Positions 18,174 to 21,468 of a stretch of 64,000 bases of DNA are shown here, piece after piece. A program made the position numbers and the translations under genes. Source of the stretch: a phage. The stretch lies in the NCBI GenBank assembly GCA_012646185.1, contig GCA_012646185.1_4706.1; one strand, 5' to 3'. Below the pieces are notes generated by a model, which saw only the letters and a program-made list of their open reading frames with translations, did not search any database and had not been told where the DNA came from. Positions within the stretch are counted from its first letter, which is position 1. Every line of letters begins with the position of its first letter.

Positions 18174-18707
18174 TTAAGCTCCTTTGTGTTTTACGGACGA
18201 TGTTAACCAGGACGATCTTACCGTGAAACCCTCAGACTCATAGAACGCCTGGGCTTCATCATTGTCGGCGCGAACATCCAGACCGATAGAATGACCACCG
18301 CATTGGTAAGCGATGTTACGTGCTTCGTTCATCAAGGCATGGCCGATCCCGCGTCCGCGATATTCGGGTTTTACAATAATCGATGTAACGTCATAAATGC
18401 CCATATGGCTCTCTGTATTCACTTCCAAGAGACCTACCGGCATCGAAGCGATAGCATCGATCATAACGACCAACATTGCAGTGTCTGGTAAACGCTTTTC
18501 TAATTCTAAAGCATCGTACTCGCGTTTTAAATCGGGGATATTCTCAAACATAAACGTGGTAGCCCATGCCTCTGATTCTACATCGTCGAGAATACGGTAC
18601 AGCTCACGAATCTGTCGTTTATGCGGGTAAAGGTGTGGATCGGCAGCCGTTGAGGCGATAACGCAATAGAACGGCCTTTCATTAATAACTACTGTTTTGA
18701 TGCTCAT
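18174..18707 (-). CDS. GNAT family N-acetyltransferase
   Basis: Acetyl-CoA binding motif IVKPEYRGRGIGHALMNEA followed by FYESEGF. Confidence 0.7.
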   Translation of the reverse strand: MSIKTVVINERPFYCVIASTAADPHLYPHKRQIRELYRILDDVESEAWATTFMFENIPDLKREYDALELEKRLPDTAMLVVMIDAIASMPVGLLEVNTESHMGIYDVTSIIVKPEYRGRGIGHALMNEARNIAYQCGGHSIGLDVRADNDEAQAFYESEGFTVRSSWLTSSVKHKGA

Positions 18708-19210
18708 GCTAAAATTCCTTCATTACCTAACAGTCGGTTACGATGACGTCGGTACATTTGACAAAGTGTTGTGATTTGATAATGTTTGTTGTAACGCACC
18801 TCGATACGTTTTTGCACCTCTTTCCATGGAAGTTTATCGTATTGCCGATAACGATGGATTTCATTTAACATACGAAGACGAGTAGGATCGGTGTTCTTTA
18901 TCGTCGTGAGCTTCACGCGTTGGTATCCACGCTGTAGTCCCGATTCGGAATACGTGACGTCAAACTCATCCTGAATGATGGTAATGATCTCCCGCCACCG
19001 ACGGTTCTCGCCATCACGTAAATGGACAACCCGCGATAAGATATCGTTCCGATTACGATGACTCAGTTTAATGTTAAGCATTGAAGCAATCGCGCTAATT
19101 GCTCTCTGACTCCGTCCTAACGCTTCACCTATTTCTTTCGATGTCATGACGCCCGCGTTTCGGCGTATGAATGCGATTTCGGTTGTTGTGTATTCTTTAC
19201 CTGCTGCCAT
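18704..19210 (-). CDS. HTH DNA-binding protein, tandem paralog 6 of 6
   Basis: Two HTH-like segments (TTTEIAFIRRNAG...SKEIGEALGRSQRAISAIASML) and the family C-terminal W...Y pattern. Confidence 0.6.
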   Translation of the reverse strand: MAAGKEYTTTEIAFIRRNAGVMTSKEIGEALGRSQRAISAIASMLNIKLSHRNRNDILSRVVHLRDGENRRWREIITIIQDEFDVTYSESGLQRGYQRVKLTTIKNTDPTRLRMLNEIHRYRQYDKLPWKEVQKRIEVRYNKHYQITTLCQMYRRHRNRLLGNEGILA

Positions 19211-19674
19211 TTCTTACCACGTGTGTTATAATAGTAACGCTGACAAAGATGTGTGTGACGATACTCCCGTTTGAACTCGACGCTGATAATGCGAGCAACT
19301 TCTCTCCAGTTAACTCCTTCATGCCGAAGTGCTGTAATACGGTCTGAAATTTTGCACCATTCATCTGGATCGTATCGTCGTAGCTTGAGTCGTCGTATTA
19401 CAGAGGCGACACTCGCTCTCGATCGGCCAAGATGATTTGACAGTTGTTTAACCGAGTATCTGTGGATATTGTCACGAATATAGGAAATCTCGTTGTCCGT
19501 ATATGCCTCATTGGTTCTCGACGAAGGGAACAGCATATACAACTTATTCTTAATCGCGCTTTCTGTGCGTTGAAATACAGAAGCCAGCTCACTAACCGGT
19601 GGTCTGGGTATCTGGTCCGCGTAATTCTCGAGGCGTGAGAGTTCCTCATCTGTCCAGCGACGGTATTTGCGCAT
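19144..19674 (-). CDS. HTH DNA-binding protein, tandem paralog 5 of 6
   Basis: Start moved to MRKYRRWTDEELSRL; second HTH SVKQLSNHLGRSRASVASVIRRLKL; C-terminal VNWREVARIISVEF. Confidence 0.6.
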   Translation of the reverse strand: MRKYRRWTDEELSRLENYADQIPRPPVSELASVFQRTESAIKNKLYMLFPSSRTNEAYTDNEISYIRDNIHRYSVKQLSNHLGRSRASVASVIRRLKLRRYDPDEWCKISDRITALRHEGVNWREVARIISVEFKREYRHTHLCQRYYYNTRGKKWQQVKNTQQPKSHSYAETRAS

Positions 19675-20149
19675 AGGCAGCTCCTTTGTTTTTCGTGTAG
19701 TAGCACCAACGTTGATACAACGCGTGTTTATTCGTTGTAATCCCAAATTTAACAACAACGTCGTAGGTAATAACATCCCAATTTTGGGTGACGTTAAGTC
19801 GTTCCGCGATAAACGCGATAATCGCTTCCCGTTCTTGCTTTGTTAACGCACGACGAATTCCATTAAGCCGTATAAACTGACGAACCGAGTCATACGAACG
19901 GTTTAAATCAAACGCAATCTCCCGCAGCGATCTTTGTTTGATTACCGACTTGATGTACGCACGTTCTTCTTCCGTATACGGCCGATGCTTTTGACGTTGA
20001 CGTATTCCCAAGCGACCCAGACACGCGTCGATGCTGGCGCGTGTTCGTCCTGTCCGTTGTGCGATTTCATCAATCGTCATCGATGTGTTTAAGTACAGAT
20101 GCGTGACGTCTTTCAGCTCGTCGTCACGCCACGGTTGAGATCGTCTCAT
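19646..20149 (-). CDS. HTH DNA-binding protein, tandem paralog 4 of 6
   Basis: WRDDELKD...MTIDEIAQRTGRTRASIDACLGRLGI and a second HTH SLREIAFDLNRSYDSVRQFIRLNGI. Confidence 0.6.
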   Translation of the reverse strand: MRRSQPWRDDELKDVTHLYLNTSMTIDEIAQRTGRTRASIDACLGRLGIRQRQKHRPYTEEERAYIKSVIKQRSLREIAFDLNRSYDSVRQFIRLNGIRRALTKQEREAIIAFIAERLNVTQNWDVITYDVVVKFGITTNKHALYQRWCYYTKNKGAAYAQIPSLDR

Positions 20150-20627
20150 CTTGGACCCCTCTTTTCTTTCTATGATGCCACCAACGCTGATAGACAGCTT
20201 GCTTCGTACGTGTTATACCGAAATGCGCATTAACTCGTTCAGCAATGTGGTGCCAATCCTGTGTTTCTTCTAACAATGTATCAACGAAGGCTATGAAGAT
20301 CTTAGTATCATCCTCGCTTAACCGCTTGAAACCATGACGGTGTGCTATCGTTCTAATACTGTTTGGATCCCTGTTTAAATCGCGTGCGAGCTGTTTATAA
20401 CTTTTGTGTTTGCAGTGTGCTCTGATATATTCCAACTCATCGACGCTGAAACGTTTATGCGGTTTACGACGTTCAACATTTAAGTATATCAACCTCGATT
20501 TAATTGCACCGTACGTTGTTTCCATGATTTCTGCGATTTCACGGATTTTTAATTTCGGGTGACGATAGTACAATTCCAGCAACTGTTCATCATCCTTACG
20601 ATTCCATCGTCGTATTGGAGGTTTCAC
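20124..20627 (-). CDS. HTH DNA-binding protein, tandem paralog 3 of 6
   Basis: WNRKDDEQLLELYY...IREIAEIMETTYGAIKSRLIYL and SYKQLARDLNRDPNSIRTIAHRHGF. Confidence 0.6.
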   Translation of the reverse strand: MKPPIRRWNRKDDEQLLELYYRHPKLKIREIAEIMETTYGAIKSRLIYLNVERRKPHKRFSVDELEYIRAHCKHKSYKQLARDLNRDPNSIRTIAHRHGFKRLSEDDTKIFIAFVDTLLEETQDWHHIAERVNAHFGITRTKQAVYQRWWHHRKKRGVQDETISTVA

Positions 20628-20640
20628 AACGAGATTTCTC

Positions 20641-21108
20641 CTATTCTGCGCGTTTTAATGCTTGAGTGTAGTAGAGGCTATGAACACCGCTTAACGTGTA
20701 ATGGGTGTTAAATTCGTTATTGATGATATTCCGTATTCTCTCCCAGGTGTTATTCTCTTTTCTAAGGGTGTGTATTCGATAATAAATCATCTCTCGACGT
20801 TGTGCTTTGCACGCGACAATGCCATAACGGTAGCAGAGTTTAGCGATTGCGTCCACGCTACGATTGAACATCGCTGCAGCTTCTTTTACGCTGTGCGTCT
20901 TGAGATAATCGGCTAACATCACGCGTTCTTCGAAACAACAATAGCGGTGACGTGACATGAGTTTCCAGCGCTTGCGATTACGGTTAATTCGACCTTGAAC
21001 AGAGCCTTCTGTTCGGTCAAGCCGTGCCGCAATCTCTTGCATTGGGATACCGTTTCGGTACAGGGTAATCAATACCGCATCTTCTTCGGGTGTCCAGTCC
21101 TTGACCAT
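20641..21108 (-). CDS. HTH DNA-binding protein, tandem paralog 2 of 6
   Basis: WTPEEDAVLITLY...MQEIAARLDRTEGSVQGRINRNRKRW and SVKEAAAMFNRSVDAIAKLCYRYGI. Confidence 0.6.
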   Translation of the reverse strand: MVKDWTPEEDAVLITLYRNGIPMQEIAARLDRTEGSVQGRINRNRKRWKLMSRHRYCCFEERVMLADYLKTHSVKEAAAMFNRSVDAIAKLCYRYGIVACKAQRREMIYYRIHTLRKENNTWERIRNIINNEFNTHYTLSGVHSLYYTQALKRAE

Positions 21109-21120
21109 AGTGCCACCCCA

Positions 21121-21468
21121 TCAACGTCTTACTTTAAGCGATATCTTGTTTCGAAAACAATAACACCGGATGGCGTGTACGCTACGATTCATTATTTCAG
21201 CAATTTCATTTAGGGTATGCTTCTTTGCAAGCATAGCGACCCGGGTTCTTTCTTCTGGTGTGTAGACTCCCCCGCGAGGAGGTAGGTCACCTCGTCGTTT
21301 CCTCAACTTGAGGTAACGTGCGCGAATAGAACATGGCGTCCGATCCATGCAACGCGCTATTTCTTTATAGCTCGCTTTTGGTGATGTACTAAGAATAAAC
21401 AGCAGCGTTTCATCTTCTTTATCCGTCCAACGTTTACCCATCTTTTCTATTCTCCTTAACTTTATCAA
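21121..21468 (-). CDS. HTH DNA-binding protein, tandem paralog 1 of 6 (two HTH units only)
   Basis: [13 protein letters not shown]...[25 protein letters not shown] and [25 protein letters not shown]. Confidence 0.6.

What the first reader, a model, noticed from the sequence alone, without database searches (positions are those of the whole stretch)
18704..21468. Tandem array of six overlapping paralogous HTH proteins
Six consecutive minus-strand genes (115-170 aa) encode clearly related proteins. Each has an N-terminal W-x-x-E/D-E/D HTH-like unit followed by a second HTH unit, and all but the shortest (21121-21468) add a conserved C-terminal W/Y-rich segment. Adjacent genes overlap by 26-67 nt, and the array abuts the DNA ligase gene. 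Such a large family of DNA-binding paralogs in one operon suggests a set of specificity factors for transcription or DNA recognition. I could not assign it to a named family.
Basis: seen in the sequence. Interest (0 to 1): 0.7.

Follow-up and report, generated by a model that had tools for sequence, protein, structure and literature searches.

The report
Six triple-HTH DNA-binding paralogs, Goslar-like phage
A relative of the nucleus-forming E. coli jumbo phage Goslar carries six neighbouring genes for small, very basic proteins, each made of two or three helix-turn-helix units of the Myb/GcrA/sigma-region-4 type; they are most likely six DNA-binding factors with different targets, which is interesting but not a new kind of system, and their function is untested.

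Summary
The six minus-strand genes are real and truly paralogous, and selection keeps them intact (dN/dS 0.06-0.34). The window is about 96% identical to Escherichia phage Goslar, where they are gp114-gp119.

- P1 lacks the N-terminal W-x-x-E-E unit and instead has unit 3 twice.
- Only three of the five junctions overlap (67, 29 and 26 nt). The other two are gaps of 13 and 12 nt.
- P6 probably starts at ATG 21441 (106 aa), not TTG 21468.
- The "W/Y-rich C-terminal segment" is a third three-helix HTH domain.

The unit 1-unit 2 module is very widespread (13,465 relatives). Elsewhere it is usually strung 3-10 times in one long protein of a mobile element, sometimes fused to a homing endonuclease.

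All three lineages of Goslar-like phages with a complete locus keep exactly six genes in the same order, but genes P5-P2 are swapped as a cassette. The recognition helices differ between paralogs and are conserved between orthologs.

Best reading: six monomeric, sequence-specific DNA-binding factors, probably regulators. This function is inferred, not shown. It is a new member of a known kind, of moderate interest.

The parts
21121..21441 (-). P6 (Goslar gp119 ortholog), 106 aa: unit 1 + unit 2 only. Unit 3 has been lost by deletion; the orthologs in L003 and L006 are 152 aa and have unit 3.
   Evidence: ATG 21441 has AAGGAG 10 nt upstream. Pfam Myb_DNA-binding scores 31.4 bits against a gathering score of 24.4. 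PHROG 323 E 2.9e-18. 152-aa orthologs.
20641..21108 (-). P5 (gp118 ortholog), 155 aa: units 1-2-3.
   Evidence: Pfam Sigma70_r4_2 34.3 bits (gathering score 25.7); HTH_23 and HTH_28 above their gathering scores. PHROG 323 E 7.4e-18. dN/dS 0.14 against L003.
20124..20627 (-). P4 (gp117 ortholog), 167 aa, GTG start with AGGAG upstream: units 1-2-3. This is the protein that was modelled.
19646..20149 (-). P3 (gp116 ortholog), 167 aa: units 1-2-3. Overlaps the end of P4 by 26 nt.
   Evidence: P3-P4 blastp 3.6e-22. PHROG 323 E 1.6e-17. dN/dS 0.19.
19144..19674 (-). P2 (gp115 ortholog), 176 aa from ATG 19674 (AAGGAG upstream): units 1-2-3 plus a C-terminal tail that is not conserved. The tail overlaps P1 by 67 nt; P2 overlaps the end of P3 by 29 nt.
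   Evidence: PHROG 323 E 4.3e-19. The tail is absent in lineage C, where P2 is 152 aa, and in lineage D.
18704..19210 (-). P1 (gp114 ortholog; Goslar annotates a shorter start), 168 aa: unit 2, unit 3 and a second unit 3. It has no unit 1.
   Evidence: The profile matches unit 3 twice, the second time at iE 2e-4. The N-terminus is conserved in orthologs P0010-P0012. PHROG 323 E 8.4e-10. dN/dS 0.06-0.08.
19123..21110 (-). Exchangeable inner cassette (P5-P2). Two phage lineages whose flanks are 89-99% identical at DNA level differ here by 27-60% of nucleotides.
   Evidence: Sliding-window nucleotide identity of L003 against L006: 0.89-0.97 in the ligase and P6, 0.40-0.73 from the P6/P5 boundary to the P2/P1 boundary, and 0.89-0.99 from P1 onward. 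Amino-acid identities: ligase 97, P6 95, P5 71, P4 50, P3 43, P2 47, P1 93, GNAT 97.
21434..23503 (-). Upstream flank: NAD-dependent DNA ligase, 689 aa. Its stop overlaps the P6 start by 8 nt.
   Evidence: Pfam DNA_ligase_aden, OB, HHH, BRCT.
18174..18707 (-). Downstream flank: GNAT acetyltransferase, 177 aa. Overlaps the P1 stop by 4 nt.
   Evidence: Pfam Acetyltransf_1.

Best explanation
The array encodes six small, strongly basic proteins that most likely bind DNA as monomers.

How each protein is built:
- Each is a string of three-helix HTH domains joined by short, mostly basic linkers.
- P2-P5 have unit 1, unit 2 and unit 3. P6 has units 1 and 2. P1 has unit 2 and two copies of unit 3.
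- Units 1 and 2 are homologous repeats of the GcrA-N/Myb/sigma-region-4 type. Unit 3 is a more divergent Myb-like HTH.

How it most likely works (inferred by analogy with c-Myb R2R3, Cbp1/Cbp2 and the Tc3/paired bipartite domains):
- Each unit places its third helix in the major groove.
- A three-unit protein would therefore read one long asymmetric site without needing to dimerise.

How the family evolved:
- The six genes arose by old tandem duplication of a three-unit gene; paralogs are only 21-37% identical.
- Each paralog has kept its own recognition helices, so the six most likely recognise six different targets.
- They are translated separately. Each start has its own Shine-Dalgarno-like purine-rich sequence (weakest for P1). 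The overlaps come from tight packing of the genes, not from recoding.

Most probable role: phage-encoded regulators of transcription or other DNA transactions on phage or host DNA during infection. The inner genes P5-P2 are exchanged between related phages as a cassette.

What is shown: paralogy, fold, basic charge, purifying selection, conserved gene number and order, mosaic exchange, and the helix-3 conservation pattern.

What is inferred: DNA binding itself, sequence specificity, binding as monomers, and the regulatory role.
For: - Paralogy: blastp; PHROG 323 for all six; only these six in the window.
- Repeat homology. Unit 1 against unit 2 by hhalign gives 96.7%, E 4.5e-10.
- Closest solved relatives by sequence. 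Cbp2 (2lvs) matches over units 1+2 at E 1.4e-9; c-Myb R2R3 at 1.6e-4.
- Mechanism of those relatives: PMC3597662 (Cbp2: two HTH units and a basic linker) and PMC10883916 (Cbp1: three HTH units aligned along the repeat).
- Charge. pI 9.7-11.0. Most units and linkers carry net positive charge, like DNA-binding Myb units and unlike acidic SANT units.
- Flexible linkage: pTM 0.40 despite pLDDT 83.
- Real genes: dN/dS 0.06-0.34, and a ribosome-binding site before each start.
- Conserved set: six genes in the same order in three lineages.
- Distinct, maintained specificities: helix 3 identity is 0.54 in distant orthologs against 0.43 at other positions (Fisher p about 0.008; the pairs are not fully independent), and 0.23 in paralogs.
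- Wider use of the module for DNA targeting: relatives are fused to HNH_3, LAGLIDADG_3 and helicase domains.
Against: - There are no experimental data for these genes. None was found for gp114-gp119 in three Goslar-centred papers opened, and a six-term full-text search listed no paper naming Goslar together with gp114-gp118.
- No candidate binding motif was found. A crude k-mer scan of intergenic gaps found nothing convincing, and no dispersed repeat is associated with the array.
- A three-helix HTH fold does not prove DNA binding. SANT domains and sigma region 4 also bind proteins.
- Whether the proteins enter the phage nucleus is unknown. If they do not, they cannot act on replicating phage DNA.
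- No close homologs were detected in other isolated chimalliviruses. The array is therefore not part of the conserved transcription machinery of that group.
Confidence: 0.55

Rival explanations
1. The proteins are non-specific or low-specificity DNA-coating proteins. The six basic multi-HTH proteins would together organise, compact or shield phage DNA, or host DNA. This would resemble Cbp1 acting with Cren7 to chromatinize CRISPR arrays, or the long relatives with 10-20 units coating DNA of mobile elements.
For: - Very high pI and basic linkers.
- Elsewhere the same module is strung 3-10 times in one polypeptide, which suits cooperative coverage of long DNA.
- Such relatives lie in the leading or accessory regions of mobile elements.
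- No specific motif was found.
- Cbp1 forms chromatin-like structures (PMC10883916).
Against: - The recognition helices are specific to each paralog and are the best-conserved element between distant orthologs. A purely electrostatic coat would not predict this.
- Six distinct genes are retained in a fixed order in three lineages.
Confidence: 0.15
2. The genes are free-standing DNA-targeting modules derived from homing endonucleases. They would be remnants of selfish elements that lost their nuclease, or partners or antagonists of such elements. This would explain the local mosaicism.
For: - PHROG HNH-endonuclease families 1891, 8446 and 7545 match units 1-2 at E 1e-3 to 1e-9.
- Relatives are fused to HNH_3 and LAGLIDADG_3 domains.
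- BFVD structural neighbours include phage endonucleases.
- The locus has sharp recombination breakpoints at gene boundaries.
- Goslar has a 711-bp gene insertion right next to the array.
Against: - None of the six genes, in any lineage, has a nuclease domain, and no nuclease gene is adjacent.
- All six are under purifying selection, with conserved number and order.
- The unit 1-2-3 architecture with a clade-specific unit 3 points to duplication of a regulator gene rather than repeated decay of homing endonucleases.
Confidence: 0.12
3. The proteins bind other proteins rather than DNA. They would act as SANT-like modules or sigma-region-4 mimics that bind host or phage RNA polymerase (for example the beta-flap), or other factors, as part of host take-over.
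For: - Pfam Sigma70_r4_2 scores above its gathering score for P5 and P4.
- NCBIfam gives weak hits to the region-4 part of ECF sigma factors.
- GcrA and sigma region 4 both work in contact with RNA polymerase (established knowledge).
Against: - Most units are net positive, whereas protein-binding SANT domains are typically acidic (established knowledge).
- There is no GcrA C-terminal sigma-binding domain and no sigma region 2 or 3.
- The closest relative by sequence, Cbp2, binds DNA (PMC3597662).
Confidence: 0.1
4. The six ORFs are the decayed pieces of one long multi-repeat gene broken by frameshifts, or they are expressed as fusions by programmed frameshifting or readthrough.
For: - Long relatives carry the same module up to 10 times in one ORF.
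- Three junctions overlap in different frames.
- P6 and P5 are in the same frame, separated by one stop codon and 12 nt.
Against: - dN/dS is 0.06-0.34 for each gene.
- Every start has its own ribosome-binding site.
- Junction geometry differs between lineages: overlaps of 1, 14, 38 and 4 nt, or gaps. P6 and P5 are in different frames in L003.
- The periodic unit 1-2-3 structure fits duplication of a gene, not fission of one.
Confidence: 0.03

Closest known systems
Cbp1/Cbp2, archaeal CRISPR DNA repeat-binding proteins (PDB 2lvs; PMC3597662, PMC10883916)
   Same: - Small basic proteins made only of two (Cbp2) or three (Cbp1) tandem HTH units joined by short basic linkers.
- Cbp2 is the best sequence match in the PDB for units 1+2, at E 1.4e-9.
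- Cbp1's three HTH units lie along one roughly 24-bp site from 5' to 3', which is the binding mode proposed here.
   Different: - The NCBIfam Cbp1 model scores only 18-20 bits against a cut-off of 140.
- There is no CRISPR array and no archaeal context.
- Unit 3 is not a detectable sequence repeat of units 1 and 2.
- Here there are six paralogs in a row rather than a single gene.
GcrA cell-cycle regulator, N-terminal DNA-binding domain (PDB 5yiu; Pfam PF07750)
   Same: - The multi-repeat relatives score above the PF07750 gathering score.
- From memory of the GcrA sequence, the pattern W-T-x-E-x-x-x-L ... EIA ... L-G-R-T/S ... is shared.
   Different: - The window proteins reach only E 0.06 on PF07750.
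- They lack the GcrA C-terminal sigma-70-binding domain.
- GcrA has a single HTH unit, not a tandem of three.
Myb/SANT repeat DNA-binding domains (c-Myb R1R2R3, Reb1, SNAPc4, Cef1)
   Same: - Tandem three-helix repeats of about 50 aa that read DNA as a monomer.
- Pfam Myb_DNA-binding scores above its gathering score for P6 unit 1, and Myb_DNA-bind_6 for P4 unit 3.
- c-Myb R2R3 matches the family profile at E 1.6e-4.
   Different: - Only the first of the three regularly spaced Trp residues is kept in units 1 and 2.
- Most units fall below the Pfam gathering scores.
- The context is a phage of bacteria.
PHROG 323 ("transcriptional regulator, D5-like"); for example Listeria phage B025 gp44, and Streptococcus Javan-phage proteins labelled "GcrA family" or "transcriptional regulator"
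   Same: All six proteins match it at E 8e-10 to 4e-19. Annotated members turn up in tblastn searches with a multi-repeat relative.
   Different: - The label is an annotation. I found no tested function behind it.
- The members found are single genes of temperate siphoviruses, not a six-gene array in a jumbo phage.
- The PHROG profile is 319 positions long and the window proteins cover only about positions 90-270.
Expansions of phage-encoded HTH transcription factors in jumbo phages (Iyer et al. 2021, PMC7824862), including the RsfA-like Myb-type expansion in Bacillus phage G
   Same: It is the same general phenomenon: several lineage-specific HTH or Myb-type factors in one jumbo phage. That paper suggests they may work with the phage RNA polymerases in phiKZ-like phages.
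   Different: That paper does not describe the Goslar array. The phage G expansion is a different (RsfA-like) family in a phage that does not form a nucleus.

Membership tests
Myb/SANT DNA-binding repeat (Pfam PF00249, PF13921) | Profile score at or above the Pfam gathering score | tested here: inconclusive
   Met for P6 (PF00249 31.4 bits against 24.4; PF13921 31.7 against 22.9) and for P4 unit 3 (PF13921 28.5 against 22.9). P1, P2, P3 and P5 fall below threshold. Unit 3 sequences scanned alone all fall below threshold.
Myb/SANT DNA-binding repeat (Pfam PF00249, PF13921) | Three-helix bundle of about 50 aa with three regularly spaced Trp or aromatic residues forming the core | tested here: inconclusive
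   The three-helix bundles are confirmed. Only the first Trp (W-x-x-E-E) is kept in unit 1. Unit 2 has Y or F at that position. Unit 3 has one invariant Trp and a C-terminal W/Y cluster.
GcrA family (Pfam PF07750) | N-terminal HTH DNA-binding domain plus C-terminal sigma-70-binding domain; score at or above the gathering score of 26.9 | tested here: not met
   [not shown]
Sigma-70 family sigma factor | Region 2 (binds the -10 element and core polymerase) together with region 4 | tested here: not met
   Only region-4-type HTH hits were found: PF08281 above its gathering score for P5 (34.3 bits) and P4 (27.8 bits). No region 2 or 3 was found. NCBIfam sigma models score 16-22 bits against cut-offs of 43-323.
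Cbp1/Cbp2 CRISPR repeat-binding proteins (NCBIfam NF040595) | Equivalog score of at least 140 bits | tested here: not met
   The model scores 17.9-19.9 bits. The repeats are nevertheless homologous: the family profile matches 2lvs at E 1.4e-9.
Cbp1/Cbp2 CRISPR repeat-binding proteins (NCBIfam NF040595) | Association with CRISPR arrays | tested here: inconclusive
   The repeat scan of the window with the repeat finder showed no CRISPR-like array of short interspaced repeats among the families it listed; no dedicated CRISPR search was run.
PHROG 323 (transcriptional regulator, D5-like) | Significant match to the PHROG profile (PHROGs have no curated cut-off) | tested here: met
   All six match at E 8.4e-10 to 4.3e-19, covering profile positions of about 90-270 out of 319.
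Homing endonuclease (HNH, LAGLIDADG or GIY-YIG) with an HTH targeting module | Presence of a nuclease catalytic domain | tested here: not met
   No nuclease domain was found in any of the six proteins by Pfam, PHROGs or NCBIfam. The matches to HNH PHROGs are confined to their HTH parts. The fold models are entirely HTH.
Sequence-specific DNA-binding transcription regulator (functional class) | Demonstrated binding to defined DNA sites and an effect on transcription | not testable with these tools
   Only indirect support is available: fold, charge and the helix-3 conservation pattern.

The most novel reading that the evidence does not exclude
The six triple-HTH proteins are the missing promoter-specificity or temporal-switch factors for the sigma-less phage RNA polymerases of Goslar-like nucleus-forming phages. 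Alternatively, they are lineage-specific DNA-recognition factors that decide compatibility between co-infecting relatives. In either case the swappable P5-P2 cassette would reprogramme what is recognised.
Probability: 0.12. Interest if true: 0.75.

Novelty: new member of a known kind. Interest (0 to 1): 0.35.

Why it matters
The recent review of nucleus-forming jumbo phages that I checked for these terms does not mention "transcription factor", "helix-turn-helix" or "DNA-binding protein". A conserved set of six distinct DNA-binding factors in the genetically tractable E. coli phage Goslar (gp114-gp119) therefore gives concrete candidates for regulators that act inside, or outside, the phage nucleus.

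The cassette-like exchange of four of the six genes between near-identical backbones is a natural experiment. If the proteins are specific, their target sites should vary together with the cassette.

The work also shows that the unit 1-unit 2 module belongs to a very large, uncharacterised repeat family. It has more than 13,000 representatives, mostly long multi-repeat proteins of mobile elements, and no curated name.

If the proteins prove to be ordinary accessory regulators, the finding remains a useful correction of the annotation: the start codons of gp114 and its relatives, the domain architecture, and the family assignment.

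Tried and rejected
- **Compositional similarity only.** Rejected. Composition-corrected blastp E-values reach 3.6e-22, and all six independently match PHROG 323.
- **More paralogs elsewhere in the window.** None were found.
- **Unit 3 as a sequence repeat of units 1 and 2.** hhalign does not support it (probability 2-7%). A unit 3 profile finds nothing meaningful in the PDB by sequence, and Pfam gives only sub-threshold Myb hits. Only the fold assigns it.
- **Anti-defence or defence-system families.** PADLOC gave no hit below E 1e-3, only three weak matches (E 0.002-0.008, 14-16 bits).
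- **NCBIfam.** Nothing came near any cut-off.
- **Close homologs in other isolated phages.** tblastn with P4 and with the profile consensus finds only Goslar, plus two marginal hits.
- **The search for related loci.** The family alignment failed because it has no conserved stretch. P1 found only two Goslar-type contigs in IMG/VR and nothing in genome contigs. P0040 found nothing in the viral contigs.
- **Target-motif hunt.** K-mer enrichment in intergenic gaps and dispersed-repeat detection gave no motif that could be tied to the array.
- **Promoters and terminators.** Sigma-70-type promoter-like and terminator-like sites in 16-27 kb do not exceed the shuffled expectation.
- **Published data on Goslar gp114-gp119.** None was found.
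- **Goslar gp120.** This is the extra gene beside the array. It has no Pfam or PHROG match.
- **Programmed frameshift or fusion.** Rejected, because junction geometry is not conserved and each start has its own ribosome-binding site.
- It was redone with permitted rows.

Full report
**1. Where the window comes from**

Window 18000-23600 is 95.9% identical to Escherichia phage vB_EcoM_Goslar, a 237-kb jumbo phage of the Chimalliviridae, the nucleus-forming group (family from the papers). The six genes correspond to Goslar gp114-gp119. They lie between the NAD-dependent DNA ligase (gp121) and a GNAT acetyltransferase (gp113).

The wider setting is a long block of minus-strand genes. Most are small and hypothetical, mixed with genes for DNA and nucleotide metabolism. 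In RefSeq, gp119 is named "SANT/Myb domain-containing protein" and the other five are "hypothetical protein". A note on gp115 says [quoted passage not shown].

**2. Checking the observation**

All six ORFs exist at the stated coordinates. Composition-corrected blastp at a database size of 1e6 gives these E-values:
- P3-P4: 3.6e-22
- P5-P6: 4e-9
- P2-P4: 1e-8
- Most other pairs: 1e-4 to 1e-6
- Weakest links: P2-P5 0.005, P1-P2 0.054, P2-P6 2.8; four P1 pairs gave no hit
- P1, the weakest member: 3.5e-4 to P5

All six independently match PHROG 323 at E 8e-10 to 4e-19. A profile scan of all 718 stop-to-stop ORFs in the window finds these six and nothing else. The similarity is therefore real homology.

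- P6 most likely starts at ATG 21441, which has AAGGAG 10 nt upstream. This gives 106 aa, as Goslar annotates gp119. It overlaps the ligase stop by 8 nt.
- P2 starts at ATG 19674, also with AAGGAG upstream.
- P1's long start at 19210 is right and Goslar's shorter annotated start is probably wrong. The N-terminal YTTTE(I/L)AFIR is conserved in orthologs, and P0012 has Leu where the short start would need Met.
- With these starts the junctions are as follows: P6/P5 a 12-nt gap, P5/P4 a 13-nt gap, P4/P3 a 26-nt overlap, P3/P2 a 29-nt overlap, P2/P1 a 67-nt overlap. "Adjacent genes overlap by 26-67 nt" therefore holds for three of five junctions.
- P1 has no W-x-x-E-E unit.

**3. Anatomy of the proteins**

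Units 1 and 2 are each about 45-50 aa and are homologous to each other (hhalign 96.7%, E 4.5e-10). Their shared pattern is (R/K)-W/Y-T-x-E-E-x-x-x-L ... EIA ... L-(N/G)-R-(T/S)-x-x-(S/A)-(I/V).

It is not detectably similar to units 1 and 2 by sequence profile. It has one invariant Trp and a nearly invariant Phe.

Structure prediction gave the following:
- The AlphaFold2 model of P4 (pLDDT 83) has nine helices arranged as three three-helix bundles. The low pTM of 0.40 means the relative orientation of the domains is not fixed, like beads on a string.
- Unit 3 modelled alone is confident (pLDDT 91, pTM 0.72) and also has three helices.

The resulting architectures are:

| Protein | Units |
|---|---|
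| P2-P5 | unit 1, unit 2, unit 3 |
| P6 | unit 1, unit 2 |
| P1 | unit 2, unit 3, second unit 3 (second match iE 2e-4) |

All 18 proteins from the three lineages have pI 9.7-11.0. Most units and linkers carry net positive charge.

**4. Family relations**

Pfam splits the units among Myb_DNA-binding, Myb_DNA-bind_6, Sigma70_r4_2, HTH_23 and HTH_28. Some hits are above the gathering scores (P6, P5, P4) and the rest are below. NCBIfam and PADLOC give nothing near their thresholds.

By sequence profile, the best solved relative is 2lvs, aligned over units 1+2 at E 1.4e-9. It is Cbp2, an archaeal protein that binds CRISPR DNA repeats and consists of two HTH units joined by a basic linker. c-Myb R2R3 follows at 1.6e-4 (PMC3597662). 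Its three-unit relative Cbp1 lays its HTH units along one repeat from 5' to 3' (PMC10883916).

An exhaustive profile search of 1.84 billion representative proteins gave:
- 13,465 hits at E <= 1e-3
- 2,578 hits at E <= 1e-10

Apart from the Goslar-type orthologs, the best hits are long proteins of 300-900 aa. Each contains 3-10 matches to profile positions of about 3-100, that is, to units 1+2. Their sequences are obvious tandem arrays of a repeat of about 48 aa: RWTxEExxxLxxxYxxxxxxEIAxxLGRTxxSVxxRAxxLGL. On these proteins Pfam GcrA, Sigma70_r4_2 and Myb all score above their gathering scores.

Public sources call them "hypothetical protein", or occasionally "transposase" or "CsgD family regulator". 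A few are fused to HNH_3, LAGLIDADG_3 or helicase domains. Two genomic contexts that I inspected are mobile elements:
- an island flanked by an integrase, next to an Eco57I/MmeI-type restriction-modification system
- a 193-kb element carrying ParB, ArdC and DpdA

Structural neighbours among viral proteins (BFVD), after Goslar's own paralogs, include phage endonucleases, GcrA-like proteins and Mor-like proteins.

Among isolated phages, only Goslar carries the array. tblastn with P4 and with the profile consensus finds nothing else significant. Unit 3 and the three-unit gene appear to be restricted to the Goslar group.

**5. Comparison across Goslar-like phages**

| Lineage | Source | State of the array |
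|---|---|---|
| A | window and Goslar | six genes |
| B | L002-L005; one contig is 244 kb | six genes |
| C | L006, L007 | six genes |
| D | L010, a fragment | only part of P2, then P1 |

In lineages A, B and C there are exactly six genes, in the same order, between the ligase and the GNAT gene. Other observations:
- P6 is 152 aa with unit 3 in lineages B and C. The window/Goslar lineage therefore lost P6 unit 3 by deletion.
- Junction geometry is not conserved. Lineage C has overlaps of 1, 14, 38 and 4 nt, and lineage D has a 12-nt gap between P2 and P1. This argues against programmed recoding and in favour of simple tight packing of genes.
- The long C-terminal tail of P2, which creates the 67-nt overlap, is missing in lineages C and D.
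- dN/dS is 0.06-0.34 wherever dS is measurable, so all six are functional genes.

The most striking result is the mosaic pattern. Amino-acid identity between lineages B and C is:

| Gene | Ligase | P6 | P5 | P4 | P3 | P2 | P1 | GNAT |
|---|---|---|---|---|---|---|---|---|
| B vs C identity (%) | 97 | 95 | 71 | 50 | 43 | 47 | 93 | 97 |

At the nucleotide level the drop begins at the P6/P5 boundary, at about window coordinate 21.1 kb. It ends just inside P1, at about 19.12 kb. dS is saturated in this block, so the cause is replacement of whole alleles by recombination rather than recent fast evolution.

Lineages A and B show a different patchwork:
- P5 and P2 are 87-95% identical at the nucleotide level, which is higher than the flanks at 73-85%.
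- P4 and P3 are 64-77% identical.
- P6 is 37-53% identical.

Individual genes of the array are therefore exchanged. Even so, positional orthology is retained; for example, every P2 has QIPRPP and every P4 starts MKP(P/T)IRRWN.

**6. A signature of distinct specificities**

I took the helix boundaries from the P4 model. Between distant positional orthologs (A or B against C, for P2-P4), identity is:

| Element | Identity |
|---|---|
| Helix 3 | 0.54 |
| Helix 2 | 0.49 |
| Non-helical positions | 0.44 |
| Helix 1 | 0.38 |

Between paralogs, helix 3 is 0.23 identical against 0.27 elsewhere. Fisher tests give p = 0.008 for helix 3 against the rest in orthologs, and p = 0.001 for helix 3 against helix 1. 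The pairs share sequences, so these p-values are approximate.

This is the pattern expected if each paralog has its own recognition helices and selection keeps them.

**7. How it most likely works**

*Shown:*
- six paralogous genes under purifying selection
- proteins that are basic strings of HTH domains
- gene number and order that are conserved
- recognition helices specific to each paralog
- inner genes that are exchanged between lineages

*Inferred, by analogy with Cbp1/Cbp2, c-Myb and Tc3:*
- each protein binds DNA as a monomer
- successive third helices sit in successive major grooves
- the basic linkers add affinity
- each protein reads a long asymmetric site
- six proteins give six specificities

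The biological role is the weakest step. It could be regulation of phage transcription, of DNA transactions, or of host genes. No expression, localisation or knock-down data exist for gp114-gp119 in the papers I could search. A comparative study did note that most jumbo phages encode their own HTH transcription factors (median 2, range 1-15). It also suggested that phiKZ-like phages may combine such factors with their own RNA polymerases (PMC7824862).

**8. Rival explanations**

| Rival | Confidence |
|---|---|
| Non-specific DNA-coating or chromatin-like proteins | 0.15 |
| Targeting modules derived from homing endonucleases, or selfish remnants | 0.12 |
| Protein-binding SANT-like modules or sigma-4 mimics | 0.10 |
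| One long gene that decayed or is recoded | 0.03, largely refuted |

The evidence for and against each is given in the structured fields.

**9. Novelty and verdict**

The fold and the general kind are known: a multi-HTH DNA-binding protein of the Myb/GcrA-N/sigma-4 type, belonging to PHROG 323. Four things are new:
- the exact architecture, including the identity of unit 3
- the corrected gene models
- the finding that the unit 1-unit 2 module belongs to a very large, unnamed repeat family found mainly in mobile elements
- the conservation of a six-gene set whose inner cassette is exchangeable in Goslar-like phages

I file it as a new member of a known kind, with moderate interest (0.35). The most novel reading the evidence does not exclude is that these proteins are specificity factors for the sigma-less phage RNA polymerases, or determinants of compatibility between related phages. 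I give that a probability of about 0.12.

Noticed in passing
window 21444/21445 (ligase/P6 junction); Goslar locus L001 6446-7156: Goslar has a clean 711-bp insertion here that encodes gp120 (235 aa). gp120 has no Pfam or PHROG match. The insertion is absent from this window and from lineages B and C.
   Followed up: partly
window 21109-21125; L003 4573-5031; L006 5532-5990: The P6 orthologs in two related lineages are 152 aa and include unit 3. In the window and in Goslar, P6 ends after unit 2 (106 aa), so about 140 nt have been deleted.
   Followed up: yes
window 14172-14196, 42184-42208, 60187-60211 (minus strand): A dispersed 25-nt motif reads TTTCACGGCTATATTACTTA(G/C)GTGA on the minus strand. 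It holds all three copies of TATATTAC in the window. The first two lie in gaps between called genes (14107-14214, 42144-42303); the position of the third relative to gene calls was not checked. From memory, TATATTAC is the core of phiKZ-type early promoters used by the virion RNA polymerase. None of the three lies within or just upstream of the HTH array.
   Followed up: partly
window 286-1598: Tandem repeats with a 120-nt period (units of about 40 aa, at least 7-8 copies, 65-79% identical) lie at the start of the window. By the offset between window and Goslar coordinates (not aligned here), this region should fall in Goslar's gp090 tail fiber gene.
   Followed up: no
L002-L005 positions about 424-1250; compare window 24475-25201: Only lineage B carries a D12-class N6-adenine DNA methyltransferase (PF02086) about 1.3 kb upstream of the ligase. 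It is split into two ORFs in L002 and L004 and is intact in L003 and L005. In the window the two neighbouring ORFs abut, so no methyltransferase is present there.
   Followed up: no
window 20845-20901 and 21169-21225: P5 and P6 keep residual DNA-level similarity: 72% over 57 nt in unit 2. This is the only direct repeat within the array listed by the repeat scan.
   Followed up: no
L013 5178-6659; L014 8001-9242: Long multi-repeat relatives of units 1-2 lie in mobile elements. One is in an integrase-flanked island beside an Eco57I/MmeI-type restriction-modification system. The other is in a 193-kb element with ParB, ArdC and DpdA. Other relatives are fused to HNH_3, LAGLIDADG_3 or helicase domains.
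   Followed up: partly
window 19144-19210: The 67-nt overlap between P2 and P1 comes from a C-terminal tail of P2 that is not conserved (KKWQQVKNTQQPKSHSYAETRAS). The tail is missing in lineages C and D. The overlapped stretch encodes the conserved first helix of P1 unit 2.
   Followed up: yes
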